From the sequence record HG792104: DNA of 61,566 nucleotides; one strand, 5' to 3'. Position numbers: made by a program. The stretch is from Escherichia phage P13771. Of the stretch, positions 9,001-12,000 are shown one piece after another (position 1 is the first letter of the stretch; every line of letters starts with the position of its first letter).

Positions 9001-12000
9001 ATACCCTTTGCTGTATTCAACAAAGTCATCAATACTGGTTGTGGTCATGACTCCACGGAAACGAAAACGTTCTGTCATGAATCGTTCCAGACTTTCGATA
9101 TTTACATTGTCCGGCAATAACGCAACAGGGCATTCCGTAAGCGGCAAATTTTCACCAGAAAAAGCAGTAGTGGTGAGTTTTACAATTTCTTTAATGGCAT
9201 TGCTATCTAACTGAGACATGTATATTTACCTTTAATTTATGTATTTAGGGATAATGCGCGAGCGTTTTAAGGCGGGGAATATTCAGCGTAAAACAGCGTC
9301 ATGTTGGCCCTGTTTATCAAAAAGCTGTCCCTGGTCTTTCTGGAACAAAGTAAGCTCACCACCTTTATTTACAAACATCGGGGTGTTAGTTGTGTCTTCT
9401 TCTGATTTACTACCACGCATTGTCGGGCGTGTGAATTTTAGTTTATGGGAAACTGATACGCGATTTTCATCAAGTGAAGATAATTCGAATTCAACACATA
9501 CCTTTCCTTTTTTGTTTGTGCTGTTTACGCCAAAGGCAACTTCACTTAATACCGCGCCAAGTTTGTTAACAAATACCCCGCCGTCGAGGTCGTTAATGAA
9601 AACATTAACATCAGTTTGATGCTGGTTCATATTAATATCTCCGTGTAGAGGTGTGTTAAGGCTTCAGTTGTTCACTGCATTTAAAGCCTGGTTTTGTTTG
9701 TGAATTAAAAACTATCGCTGCCGTACTGCCAGTAACCTGGGTCGTCCGTGTGATTCGGGTTTACGTTTTTGCTGCGATTGTCTTTGTCTTTGAGAGTGGA
9801 AACCATATTTGCTACCGTTTCTGGTTTCTTTCCTTCAGCTTTTTCTTTCAGTGTCTGCCCTGTTTCTGCAATGAATGGAATGCGGATTTCCATCTGGTAA
9901 CCGTCTGCGCCAGTCTTTCTGTTTGTGGTTAATACTTTCTGGAGGACGAGTCCGATTTTCTTTCCGTGAAACTCAGGTGCAACATATTTACTGACGGAAA
10001 CCATATGTTGCGTTAACTGCCCAATTCCTGTGCATCCCATCATGGCGTGAATAATGCTCGCCCCAAATTTATTTTCAGTACCGTCATTCTTCTGAACACA
10101 AACACTGAGATATTGGATTTTCCGTCCGTCGTCGGATTCTCCAGAAAACTCAATGAATCGGGCACCTTTTTCTGATTGCTTGAGTTCTGCTTCGGTGATG
10201 TTAATGATATGCGCACCCGTTTCGGTAATAAAACTACCTTGTCCGGCGGTCAGTGCTGATTCTTCGTTATAAGTAAAAATCACTTCATCCATTAGTTATT
10301 AACCCCCCATTGTTCTCCAAATACAAAACCAATTTCCGCCAGTGCTTCGTCCATTTTGTCGATGAACTCCGGCACCATCTCATCAAAACTCGCCATGTAC
10401 TTTTCATCCCGCTCGACCACGACATAATGCAGGCCTTCACGCTTCATGCGTGGGTCGTAGTTGGCGAAGTACCAGGCGTCCTTGTCTGTAACCCACATGC
10501 TGAATTGCACCTGGGCCATGTAAGCAGGCTTGATAGCGTCAAAGCCGCCAAGCCGGAATTTCATGAAGTCGCGGGAAGTAAAAGGGCATTTAAGCTCAAG
10601 ACCGTTACCGTCGCTGCATAAACCGTCGGGAGAGCAGGCGGTGCGCATGCTTTCGTCACGAAAAATTATTGGCGTTTCCGAGACGGTAACATCCGCGATA
10701 AATTCGAAGAGGGCACGGGCATCATCTTCGTATTGCTTTCCCCATGCGAGCGACTTAGCGTTAACTTCCGGTGCCACGCCAGTACAAACTTCAGCCAGCA
10801 GGGTGTGGAAGTATGACATTTTTGTATCAGGCCATTTGCTGCCGGAACGTGGCTTTGCTATCACATTGTGAACTTCTGAAGCAGTGATAACACCGAGTCT
10901 CAGCTTGTGCCATCCATCATCGCCCTGGTCGAGGCTGGTAATATCCACGCCAGTTCGCTGGAGAATAATTTCTGGTGTCATGACACGGCCTCGCTGTTAT
11001 TTTCCGTGGTGGCGTGAATTTTCGCTTCCGCCGTGGCCTTGTTTCTGGCAGCTTTCTTTTTGACAAAATCAAGCGTTTTGACAGCTTCTTCCTGACTGAG
11101 ATATTCATGTGATGCAATCGTGCGACGGAATGTTTTGGAACATAAGGGAAGCAGGTCATCCCATGTCTTGTTAATTTCGGTGATTGCCTGAGTGATCTCA
11201 TTGATAATCTCATCTGATGCGGGAGTGACGTCACGCTCAGGGATGTGATCAGCATTCAGGATGATACCTTCACCGCCCTGAGTGTTCAGGTAGTCGATAG
11301 CTGTATCCAGGCGATCGCGACGGGGCCAGTATTTGCTGGCGCGCTTAACAATGGCTTTTCTGGCCATTTCATCGGGGAAACTATCCCACGGGCTACTTCC
11401 TCCGTTATTTCCGGCTTTGCTGCACGCCCTGATGACCTCGATTTCCCTGTTGCTCATCTCTTCGGTCAGATAGTCGCCTTCGGATGTTTTTACGACACAA
11501 TAACCGCCAATGCGTGCGCCCCTGTCTACGAAGGGGTTGTATTTGTGCGTGGGGGCGCAGTCAATACCGTTGGACTCGTAAATGTCCTTCTCGTAAACAA
11601 GTTTGCATTGCCCCCACTGAATGGCTCCTGTGACCTGTGCCAGATGCAGAAGCCCCATATAACTGATATCCAGGCATACAGCCTTTTTTCGTGGGACCAG
11701 ATACGCCAGCTTGCTGGCCGGGTTCAGGGTTATGCCGATGGCGGCAACATTGATGATAGCGTTCTGTGCGCTGGGCAGATTTGCCCTTGCTGTGTCAGCC
11801 AGAAAGGCATTTTTCTGGAATTGCTGAATTGCAAACTGACTTTCCTTCGCCCATGTCAGCGTCGGTTCAGTTAATGCCTCGCAGAAAAAGCGCTCCTGCT
11901 GCTTAACAAATTCAACGATATCGAACATTTTTTGGTCCTGAAAATCAGAAAGGACAGGGGGAGAATTTTCTCTCCCATTCTTCTTCCGCCCGAGCATAGG

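What the first reader, a model, noticed from the sequence alone, without database searches (positions are those of the whole stretch)
10978..11928. RecT-core recombinase carrying a lambda Bet-like C-terminal tail
The body of the protein is RecT-like (SKAGNNG..PW signature), but the last about 40 residues (TWDDLLPLCSKTFRRTIAS..EEAVKTLDFVKKKA) closely resemble the C-terminus of lambda Bet, which in lambda contacts Exo. The neighbouring exonuclease is lambda-Exo-like. This looks like a module exchange that keeps the partner-interaction tail matched to the nuclease.
Basis: partly seen in the sequence, partly recalled or inferred. Interest (0 to 1): 0.35.

Follow-up and report, generated by a model that had tools for sequence, protein, structure and literature searches.

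The report
RecT-type annealase with lambda Bet tail
This Shiga-toxin phage recombinase joins a RecT-type DNA-annealing body to the small lambda Bet end domain that grips lambda exonuclease, and across related phages that end domain travels with the exonuclease gene, not with the body.

Summary
The window is a TL-2011c/P13374-type Stx2a phage. The gene lies on the minus strand at 10978..11928 (316 aa).

- **Body (residues 1-214):** RecT-type. It passes NCBIfam TIGR00616, is 35% identical to Rac RecT, does not hit the bet_lambda model, and its predicted fold is closest to Listeria RecT.
- **Linker (215-231):** predicted disordered.
- **End domain (232-299):** a homologue of the lambda Bet (Redβ) C-terminal domain (CTD), E 7e-19, about 53% identity, model rmsd 0.7-0.9 Å to 6M9K/8TFU. 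Rac RecT has no such tail.
- **Next gene:** 88% identical to lambda Exo, with a 4-nt stop/start overlap. The residues essential for the lambda complex are kept on both partners.

In 28 related annealase/exonuclease pairs, CTD identity tracks Exo identity (Spearman 0.89), while body identity does not (0.36). CTD and Exo clades never disagree, whereas body clades occur with every Exo clade. Relatives with a ~70% identical body but a different tail have no lambda-type Exo. One E. coli recombinant crosses over exactly at the end of the body.

The architecture is old and widespread; phi80 RecT has it. [quoted passage not shown] Binding itself is untested. Interest is moderate.

The parts
11287..11928 (-). 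Annealase body (N-terminal domain, NTD), residues 1-214: RecT-type ssDNA-annealing/oligomerisation domain
   Evidence: Pfam PF03837, E 9e-25. NCBIfam TIGR00616 'rect', 67 bits against a 52.65 cut-off, and no hit to TIGR01913 bet_lambda. 35% identical to Rac RecT over residues 56-202, E 8e-20. AF2 pLDDT about 88-93. Best PDB fold match is Listeria phage A118 RecT 7UB2, E 8e-7.
11236..11286 (-). Flexible linker, residues 215-231; the junction at which tails differ between relatives
   Evidence: pLDDT below 50 for residues 215-231. Alignment conservation ends after ...NTxGGEGI. The crossover in the natural recombinant L157 lies just upstream, in the KRASKYWP segment.
11032..11235 (-). Bet (Red-beta)-type C-terminal three-helix domain (CTD), residues 232-299: predicted Exo- and SSB-binding adaptor
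   Evidence: phmmer against PDB: 8TFU E 6.7e-19, 6M9K E 1e-14. Foldseek TM 0.87-0.94 (normalised to target), rmsd 0.7-0.9 A, 53-55% identity. Hot-spot residues are kept: L262, F288 and K292 correspond to lambda L223, F249 and K253 (residue roles from PMC6393309). No Pfam or NCBIfam model covers this domain.
10978..11031 (-). Lineage-specific C-terminal extension (residues 300-316) and stop codon; the stop overlaps the exo start (ATGA)
   Evidence: No counterpart in lambda Bet or in homologues other than P0001-P0003. Low-confidence helix, pLDDT 50-61. The sequence ...gtgtcATGAcacca shows the 4-nt overlap.
10292..10981 (-). Lambda-Exo-type 5'-3' exonuclease (229 aa), the predicted partner of the CTD
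   Evidence: 88% aa identity to lambda Exo, E 4e-160. Pfam YqaJ PF09588. 81% nt identity to lambda exo, beginning at the exo start codon. Helix E keeps L91 and F94, with T90A and T95I.
11945..12226 (-). GamL-type host-nuclease (RecBCD) inhibitor, first gene of the recombination module
   Evidence: PHROG 1050 'gam-like host nuclease inhibitor', E 1e-48. Same position as gamL in phi80.
9705..10292 (-). Phage-encoded SSB-like protein ('SSB-2' of the 2025 Genome Research classification), directly downstream of exo
   Evidence: PHROG 743 'single strand DNA binding protein', E 8e-69. No Pfam hit. Named SSB-2 for TL-2011c in PMC12315714.

Best explanation
The gene encodes a two-domain single-strand annealing protein made by domain shuffling. 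A RecT-type DNA-annealing body is joined through a disordered linker to a three-helix domain homologous to the lambda Red-beta CTD.

By analogy with the solved lambda complex, the CTD is predicted to dock onto helix E of the adjacent lambda-type exonuclease. That would load the annealase onto the 3' overhang as the nuclease makes it. The same surface is then predicted to bind the C-terminal tail of SSB.

In evolution, the CTD and the exo gene behave as one unit that straddles the gene boundary. That unit has been combined repeatedly with different annealase bodies, both RecT-type and Bet-type, by recombination at or near the linker.

Shown here: the chimeric architecture, the fold assignment, conservation of the interface hot spots, the CTD/Exo co-variation, and a recent crossover. 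Inferred: physical binding and the loading mechanism in this phage.
For: - **Domain identities:**
- **Partner:** Exo is 88% identical to lambda Exo. The stop and start codons overlap by 4 nt (ATGA) as in lambda.
- **Interface:** the residues whose mutation abolishes the lambda complex (Red-beta L223 and F249; Exo L91 and F94; PMC6393309) are all conserved in the window pair. So is K253, which is needed for SSB binding.
- **Co-variation:** across 28 pairs, pairwise identity gives Spearman 0.89 for CTD against Exo, but 0.36 for NTD against Exo.
- **Clades:** CTD clade against Exo clade gives 18/8/2 on the diagonal and 0 off it. NTD clade against Exo clade fills all six cells.
- **Single striking pair:** two Morganella loci have Exo 99% and CTD 85% identical but NTD only 51%.
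- **Tail type predicts the neighbour:** Bet-like CTD with lambda-Exo family, 27 of 27. The alternative 'MKLQQNVQAIY' tail pairs with a MuGam-like 160-aa gene in 17 of 19 loci, and no lambda-Exo-like ORF is found in those loci.
- **Graded divergence:** bodies 66-70% identical to the window's are paired with Exo genes only 34-42% identical to lambda Exo. Their CTDs are detectable only by profile comparison (hhalign 95%, E 3e-8). The tail of the relatives that lack an Exo is unrelated (0.8%).
- **Natural recombinant L157:** 97-100% nt identity to a Salmonella-type locus up to about codon 190-198, then 92-100% identity to the window through the CTD, exo and beyond.
- **Other body class:** Bet-type bodies also carry either this CTD or unrelated tails.
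- **Function of the architecture:** phi80 RecT has the same architecture (CTD 76% identical to lambda Bet CTD, Exo 85% to lambda Exo). It is a functional recombinase in vivo (PMC3945230).
Against: - No binding or recombination data exist for this protein.
- The CTD coding region is physically adjacent to exo. Linkage alone would therefore make it co-inherit with exo more than the body does.
- The CTD is much more diverged from lambda (53% aa) than Exo is (88% aa). Several interface positions differ: I227T, L250V, Q226K, Q252K and E256R in the CTD, and T90A and T95I in Exo. Cross-binding to lambda Exo, and even affinity for its own Exo, cannot be assumed.
- Residue-level mutual information was dominated by phylogeny and gave no independent contact signal.
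- The comparative set is about 30 loci falling into three clades, so the number of independent events is small.
Confidence: 0.8

Rival explanations
1. Linkage only. The tail co-inherits with exo simply because its codons lie next to exo. Recombination breakpoints fall anywhere, and no functional matching is being selected.
For: The CTD coding region ends 4 nt inside exo. Any random breakpoint in the roughly 640-nt body region would produce the observed NTD/Exo discordance. The crossover in L157 lies in a conserved DNA stretch where homologous recombination is expected anyway.
Against: Phage mosaic joints usually fall at gene boundaries, yet no CTD/Exo discordance was seen in 28 pairs, while every NTD/Exo combination was seen. 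The experimentally essential interface residues are conserved within each clade and change together between clades: LxI..FL with TLFT, F.K..ML with MTFY, A.L..SM with LLFE. Tails differ categorically when there is no lambda-Exo-type gene in the locus.
Confidence: 0.08
2. The tail is primarily a host-SSB-binding module, and its association with lambda-type Exo is incidental.
For: The Red-beta CTD binds the SSB C-terminal peptide using the same pocket (8TFU; PMC6393309). K253 and F249, which are needed for SSB binding, are conserved in the window protein. CTD mutations also hurt Exo-independent ssDNA recombination in lambda.
Against: Phages of the same hosts (E. coli, Salmonella) carry near-identical bodies with unrelated tails, depending on whether a lambda-type Exo follows. 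Host SSB tails are nearly invariant among enterobacteria (general knowledge, not tested here), so they would not drive three co-varying CTD/Exo clades. The two roles are not mutually exclusive.
Confidence: 0.07
3. No exchange occurred. The Bet-like tail is ancestral to the whole RecT/Red-beta superfamily and was lost or diverged beyond recognition in Rac RecT and others.
For: The CTD occurs on both Bet-type and RecT-type bodies. Remote CTD homologues accompany distant Exo homologues, which shows the domain is old.
Against: The NTD and CTD histories are strongly incongruent. NTD clades are fully reassorted against CTD/Exo clades. Exo 99% and CTD 85% identical sit on bodies only 51% identical within one species. 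A recombinant with a sharp nucleotide-level crossover exists. A body 97% identical to the lambda Bet body carries an unrelated tail (P0175).
Confidence: 0.05

Closest known systems
Lambda Red-beta (Bet) with lambda Exo: the Red two-component recombinase (PDB 6M9K, 8TFU; PMC6393309)
   Same: Same gene order (gam-type inhibitor, annealase, exo) and the same 4-nt overlap between annealase stop and exo start. Exo is 88% identical. The CTD is homologous (about 53% identity, same predicted three-helix fold) and keeps L223, F249 and K253. The two-domain layout with a flexible linker is also shared.
   Different: The DNA-annealing body is not Bet-type. It does not hit TIGR01913, and BLAST finds no similarity to Bet upstream of the GPW/PW motif at query residue 178 (Bet residue 140). 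The inhibitor is GamL-type rather than lambda Gam. The protein has a 17-residue C-terminal extension. An SSB-like gene follows exo.
Phage phi80 RecT ('rec', YP_007947959) with phi80 Exo
   Same: Same architecture and same module: gamL, then a RecT-type body with a Bet-like CTD, then lambda-like exo. Its CTD is 76% identical to the lambda Bet CTD and its Exo is 85% identical to lambda Exo. It was shown to act as a recombinase in vivo (PMC3945230). The 2025 Genome Research survey places the phi80 and TL-2011c annealases in the same sequence type, 'SAP type 4'.
   Different: Its body is only 55% identical to the window's, which is a different sub-clade. Its CTD is 56% identical to the window's. 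phi80 has no SSB-2 gene at the position after exo.
Rac prophage RecT with RecE
   Same: The body is homologous: 35% identity, shared SKAGNNG..PW motif, same NCBIfam subfamily TIGR00616. Both act as an annealase paired with a 5'-3' exonuclease.
   Different: The window protein scores 74 bits against a 296-bit cut-off for the RecT equivalog model NF007351, so it is not an orthologue. Rac RecT's short tail has no similarity to the Bet CTD. Its partner is RecE, encoded upstream, not a lambda-type Exo downstream.
HK140 / mEpX1 / Salmonella-type 'SAP type 4' annealases
   Same: The body is about 72% identical to the window's and ends at the same junction.
   Different: The tail is unrelated (hhalign probability 0.8%). 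The next gene is a MuGam-like/Sipho_Gp157 protein, and no lambda-Exo-like ORF is found in these loci.

Membership tests
RecT family (Pfam PF03837; NCBIfam TIGR00616 'rect' subfamily) | Sequence match of the annealing domain above the curated cut-off | tested here: met
   PF03837: 86.6-87.9 bits against a cut-off of 24. TIGR00616: 66.5-67.1 bits against a cut-off of 52.65. PF03837 also matches lambda Bet, so only TIGR00616 separates the two families.
RecT family | RecT-like rather than Red-beta-like fold of the body | tested here: met
   The AF2 model (pLDDT about 90 in the body) gives Listeria phage A118 RecT 7UB2 as best PDB match, E 8e-7 over 196 columns. No Red-beta NTD chain appears among the matches with E <= 0.001. 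This rests on a predicted structure only.
Rac RecT orthologue (NCBIfam NF007351 equivalog) | Full-length score above the equivalog cut-off | tested here: not met
   74 bits against a cut-off of 296. It is a family member, not an orthologue of E. coli RecT.
Lambda Bet (NCBIfam TIGR01913 bet_lambda) | Bet-type N-terminal annealing domain | tested here: not met
   No TIGR01913 hit for the window protein, whereas lambda Bet scores 169.5 bits. BLASTP against Bet aligns only from the PW motif onward. 'Bet' annotations of this gene in some records are therefore right only for the tail.
Red-beta C-terminal domain (PDB 6M9K / 8TFU) | Sequence homology to the CTD (lambda residues about 183-261) | tested here: met
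   E 6.7e-19 and 1e-14, about 53% identity over residues 225-299.
Red-beta C-terminal domain | Three-helix-bundle fold | tested here: met
   The model has helices at 239-251, 256-266 and 279 onward. TM 0.87-0.94 normalised to the target, rmsd 0.7-0.9 A to 6M9K and 8TFU. Predicted structure.
Red-beta C-terminal domain | Hydrophobic pocket and lysine needed for Exo and SSB binding (L223, I227, F249, L250, K253) | tested here: met
   The window protein has L262, T266, F288, V289 and K292. The three residues whose mutation was shown to abolish a function (L223, F249, K253) are identical. I227 is T and L250 is V (residue roles from PMC6393309).
Red-beta C-terminal domain | Physical binding to the partner exonuclease and to the SSB C-terminal tail | not testable with these tools
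   Needs pull-down or ITC, or a multimer structure prediction, none of which was available.
Lambda Exo family (YqaJ PF09588; PD-(D/E)XK 5'-3' exonuclease) | Sequence match, and conservation of helix E residues L91 and F94 that bind the CTD | tested here: met
   PF09588 99.7 bits. 88% identity to lambda Exo. Helix E reads [20 protein letters not shown], with L91 and F94 kept. TIGR03033 scores 54.5 bits, below its 68.05 cut-off.
Two-component 'SynExo' recombinase module | Annealase and exonuclease genes adjacent, co-oriented and translationally coupled within the phage early-left operon | tested here: met
   The order gamL, annealase, exo, SSB-2 lies on one strand, with an ATGA overlap between annealase and exo.

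The most novel reading that the evidence does not exclude
The Red-beta-type CTD together with its cognate exo gene is a portable 'adaptor plus nuclease' cassette. Natural phages plug it onto unrelated annealase bodies (RecT-type and Bet-type). The CTD alone would therefore decide which exonuclease an annealase can work with. If so, swapping a roughly 70-residue tail should be enough to re-pair any RecT/Red-beta body with lambda Exo, which would be a general design rule for dsDNA recombineering.
Probability: 0.5. Interest if true: 0.55.

Novelty: new variant of a known kind. Interest (0 to 1): 0.42.

Why it matters
Annealases and exonucleases from different phages work only as cognate pairs. 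For lambda, the pairing is explained by the Red-beta CTD docking on Exo.

A 2023 structural review states that it is unknown whether RecT-type annealases use a similar CTD (PMC11611040). The 2019 structure paper described the CTD as having no significant homology to other proteins (PMC6393309). This gene and its relatives show that a whole branch of RecT-type annealases carries that same domain, and carries it only when a lambda-type Exo follows.

A 2025 survey of lambdoid recombination modules noted that this annealase type occurs with many different partners. It guessed at 'shuffling of partner interaction domains' and left the analysis undone (PMC12315714). The co-variation found here supplies that analysis in outline.

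It also gives ready-made natural chimeras for testing whether the tail alone sets partner specificity. That would be useful for building dsDNA recombineering systems with better annealase bodies. It does not change the known mechanism, and the gene itself is already in databases, so the interest is moderate.

Tried and rejected
- **Exhaustive HMMER search with the tail alone** against 1.84 billion representative proteins. It gave only 21 hits, mostly fragments. The query is too short and the library is clustered at 50% identity, so the result says little about distribution.
- **Scan of viral contigs with an Exo alignment**. The best 80 loci were almost all either identical to the window or lambda-type. 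They confirmed two discrete architectures but added no diversity.
- **Residue-by-residue mutual information between CTD and Exo columns**. The top pairs were clade markers rather than known contacts. This was rejected as evidence of direct contact. Only the pattern at the published interface positions was used.
- **Looking for the RecE-partnered member (phage Edno5) named in the 2025 paper.** A RecE search did not turn it up. The Vibrio phage checked instead has a distant lambda-Exo-family nuclease, not RecE. The prediction that a RecE-partnered member has yet another tail remains untested.
- **Recent transfer from lambda itself** was considered and rejected. DNA similarity to lambda starts exactly at the exo start codon (81%), and the CTD DNA is only about 50-63% identical.
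- **Reciprocal I227T / T95I change as compensatory evidence.** The window and a Bet-bodied Serratia protein share it, but they also share a one-residue deletion. It is probably one inherited event and is not counted as independent evidence.
- **Homologues of the SSB-2 gene** were sought in the fetched genome loci; none were found.
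Full report
**Source and gene model**

The window matches Escherichia phage TL-2011c (NC_019442) at 100% over the 5.5 kb around the finding. It is 99.5% identical to P13374-type Stx2a phages of the O104:H4 outbreak lineage.

The finding's coordinates, 10978..11928, are a minus-strand ORF of 316 codons plus stop. RefSeq annotates a longer 339-aa form from ATG 11997, which would overlap the upstream gene by 53 nt. All homologues begin at the position of the 316-aa start. ATG 11928 has an AGGA 7 nt upstream and follows the upstream gene's stop codon by 16 nt. I therefore use the 316-aa numbering.

**The observation**

The motif SKAGNNGGSSPW is present and aligns with SKAGNNGPW of Rac RecT.

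A phmmer search of the protein against every PDB sequence returns exactly two distinct sequences. Both are the lambda Red-beta (Bet) C-terminal domain: 8TFU at E 6.7e-19 and 6M9K at E 1e-14, covering residues 225-299. BLASTP against full-length lambda Bet aligns only residues 178-300 (E 9e-24), and the identities are concentrated in the last 70 residues.

The similarity is real. It covers about 75 residues rather than 40. The last 17 residues of the protein are a lineage-specific extension that is not Bet-like.

The gene immediately downstream (10292..10981) is 88% identical in protein to lambda Exo and 81% identical in DNA. Its start codon overlaps the annealase stop codon in ATGA, as in lambda.

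**What each part is**

| Part | Residues | Identity | Key evidence |
|---|---|---|---|
| Body | 1-214 | RecT-type | TIGR00616 passed; 35% to Rac RecT |
| Linker | 215-231 | disordered | pLDDT below 50 |
| End domain (CTD) | 232-299 | Red-beta CTD homologue | E 7e-19; three helices |
| Extension | 300-316 | lineage-specific | no counterpart elsewhere |

- The body passes the NCBIfam RecT subfamily model TIGR00616 (67 bits against a 52.65 cut-off). It fails the Rac RecT equivalog model (74 against 296). It gives no hit to the Bet model TIGR01913, which lambda Bet hits at 169.5 bits.
- Pfam PF03837 matches the window protein, Rac RecT and lambda Bet alike, so it does not discriminate.
- The body is 35% identical to Rac RecT over residues 56-202 (E 8e-20), and that alignment stops at residue 202.
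- The tail has no Pfam or NCBIfam model.
- An AlphaFold2 model built on 50 homologues has mean pLDDT 81.7. The body is confident (blocks mostly 85-93). Residues 215-231 are below 50. Three helices follow at 239-251, 256-266 and 279 onward.
- Foldseek against the PDB gives Listeria phage A118 RecT (7UB2, E 8e-7) for the body. For the tail it gives the Red-beta CTD structures, with TM 0.87-0.94 normalised to the target, rmsd 0.7-0.9 Å and 53-55% identity.

The description 'RecT core with a Bet tail' therefore holds by sequence, by curated family models and by predicted structure.

**Is the tail general to RecT and Bet?**

No. Rac RecT gives no hit to the Bet CTD even at E 10.

Among the 120 best homologues of the window protein, the body is uniformly about 70% identical (a sub-clade is at 55-58%), but the tails differ:
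- Bet-like tails, 28-80% identical to the lambda CTD.
- A completely different tail in Salmonella, Klebsiella, Enterobacter and HK140-type proteins.
- A third class seen in environmental and Vibrio sequences.

The same is true for the Bet-type body. Of the 120 best homologues of lambda Bet, 44 have the Bet CTD and 58 have unrelated tails of at least 55 residues. One of those (P0175) has a body 97% identical to lambda's.

The tail is thus a separable domain that occurs on two distinct annealase bodies.

**Does the tail go with the nuclease?**

I fetched 70 genomic loci encoding relatives of the body and several more by exact-protein look-up.

- Every one of the 27 genome-scan proteins with a Bet-like tail is followed directly by a lambda-Exo-family gene, usually with the same 4-nt overlap.
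- 17 of 19 proteins with the 'MKLQQNVQAIY' tail are followed by a 160-aa protein. It is Pfam Sipho_Gp157 and PHROG 'Mu Gam-like end protection'. No lambda-Exo-like ORF is found in those loci.
- For 28 annealase/Exo pairs, pairwise identities correlate at Spearman 0.89 between CTD and Exo. The values are 0.36 between body and Exo and 0.37 between body and CTD.
- Cutting each part into clades gives CTD against Exo counts of 18, 8 and 2 on the diagonal and none off it. The two body clades occur with all three Exo clades.
- Two Morganella loci have Exo 99% and CTD 85% identical but bodies only 51% identical.
- The relation continues into the twilight zone. Bodies 66-70% identical to the window's are paired with Exo genes only 34-42% identical to lambda Exo. 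Their tails are recognisable as CTD homologues only by profile comparison (hhalign 95%, E 3e-8). The tail of the relatives that lack an Exo is unrelated (0.8%).

**A recent exchange caught in the act**

An E. coli protein (P0003, 312 aa) has a body of the Salmonella/HK140 type and the window's tail.

At the DNA level its locus, L157, is 97-100% identical to the Salmonella locus L003 from upstream of the gene to about codon 190-198, which is the conserved KRASKYWP segment at the end of the body. It is then 92-100% identical to the window through the tail, exo and the following gene.

The tail and exo moved together, and the joint is at the domain boundary rather than at the gene boundary.

**The interface**

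The 6M9K paper shows that helix E of Exo (T90, L91, F94, T95) inserts into a CTD pocket formed by L223, I227, F249 and L250. Mutating L223, F249, L91 or F94 abolishes the complex. K253 and F249 are needed for binding the SSB C-terminal tail (PMC6393309).

- In the window pair the CTD has L262, T266, F288, V289 and K292 at these positions. Exo has A90, L91, F94 and I95. All residues shown by mutation to be essential are conserved, and four peripheral or secondary positions differ.
- Across the loci there are three paired versions of the interface: LxI..FL with TLFT, F.K..ML with MTFY, and A.L..SM with LLFE. They never mix.
- The I227T and T95I pair of the window recurs in a Bet-bodied Serratia protein. 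The two CTDs also share a one-residue deletion, so this is probably one inherited change.
- Mutual-information ranking was dominated by clade structure and is not used as evidence.

**Mechanism proposed**

1. GamL blocks RecBCD.
2. The lambda-type Exo trimer resects the 5' strand.
3. The annealase is held on Exo through its CTD, so that the RecT-type body loads on the emerging 3' strand.
4. The same CTD surface then engages an SSB C-terminal tail at the target.

Steps 1, 2 and 4 rest on homology to lambda and phi80 proteins. Step 3 rests on the conserved domain and interface and on the comparative pattern. None has been measured for this phage.

**What is already known**

- Phage phi80 has the same architecture. 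Its CTD is 76% identical to the lambda Bet CTD, its Exo is 85% identical to lambda Exo, and its body is 55% identical to the window's.
- The phi80 RecT was shown to promote recombination in vivo and was described only as 32% identical to Red-beta (PMC3945230).
- A 2023 review says it is unknown whether RecT-type annealases use a similar CTD.
- A 2025 survey groups the TL-2011c, phi80, HK140 and Edno5 annealases as 'SAP sequence type 4'. [quoted passage not shown]
- Database names for this gene alternate between RecT and Bet, which reflects the chimera.

I found no paper in the searchable library that shows the chimera or the CTD/Exo co-variation. That library is incomplete.

**Rivals**

- **Linkage alone.** It could explain part of the co-inheritance, because the CTD codons abut exo. 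The complete absence of CTD/Exo discordance, the clade-specific paired interfaces, and the categorical change of tail when there is no lambda-Exo-type gene all argue for selection on the match.
- **SSB binding only.** This role does not explain why phages of the same hosts carry unrelated tails.
- **Ancestral tail without exchange.** This is contradicted by the incongruent body and tail histories and by the recombinant.

**Verdict**

This is a natural domain-shuffled variant of a well-known two-component recombinase. It is not a new kind of system, and it is not peculiar to this phage. Its value is as comparative evidence, and as ready experimental material, for the idea that the small C-terminal domain sets exonuclease partnership.

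Noticed in passing
window 9705-10292 (-): The SSB-like protein encoded right after exo (PHROG 743; 'SSB-2' in PMC12315714) ends in ...DDPGYWQYGSDSF. That is an acidic stretch with a terminal Phe, reminiscent of the E. coli SSB tail ...DDDIPF, whose terminal Phe is proposed to bind the Red-beta CTD pocket. It might be a phage-supplied ligand for the annealase tail. No homologue was present in the other fetched genome loci.
   Followed up: partly
L003:2149-2631 and 16 other loci (L004, L011-L015, L017-L021, L025, L029, L045, L071, L072): Annealases with a body about 70% identical to the window's but the alternative 'MKLQQNVQAIY' tail are followed in 17 of 19 loci by a 160-aa Sipho_Gp157 / 'Mu Gam-like end protection' protein. 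No lambda-Exo-like ORF is found in those loci. This suggests that tail may be matched to a different partner.
   Followed up: partly
window 10978-11031 (-): A 17-residue C-terminal extension ([16 protein letters not shown]) lies beyond the end of the Bet-like domain. It is found only in the closest E. coli Stx-phage relatives. It lengthens the gene while preserving the ATGA overlap with exo. Its function is unknown.
   Followed up: no
window 11929-11997 (-): RefSeq's 339-aa gene model starts at ATG 11997 and overlaps the gam-like gene by 53 nt. Homologue alignments and the AGGA upstream of ATG 11928 favour the 316-aa start.
   Followed up: yes
window 12823-13497 (-) and 13753-14538 (-): Two neighbouring anti-repressor-type genes (one with an ORF6N domain) share a nearly identical C-terminal segment of about 100 residues (...PLSWFS..HHPYATMNYVDRKVISLDASVLFDMPSPTMRILNELHSKGYNVDAAVAEFNAFKHLTEEMRR...). 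Their N-terminal halves differ. This looks like another case of domain-level mosaicism in the same operon.
   Followed up: no
L011 and L012 (records titled Micromonospora sp. and Streptomyces sp.): Two short contigs (about 1.9-2.0 kb) from actinomycete assemblies encode an enterobacterial-type annealase about 70% identical to the window's body, followed by the MuGam-like gene. They are most likely contaminating enterobacterial DNA in those assemblies.
   Followed up: no
P0155, P0158-P0166, P0179 (homologues of lambda Bet): Many E. coli 'Bet' proteins of 275-331 aa have a lambda Bet body up to about residue 195 joined to a phage-integrase (PF00589) segment. They look like deletion or fusion products in defective prophages.
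   Followed up: no
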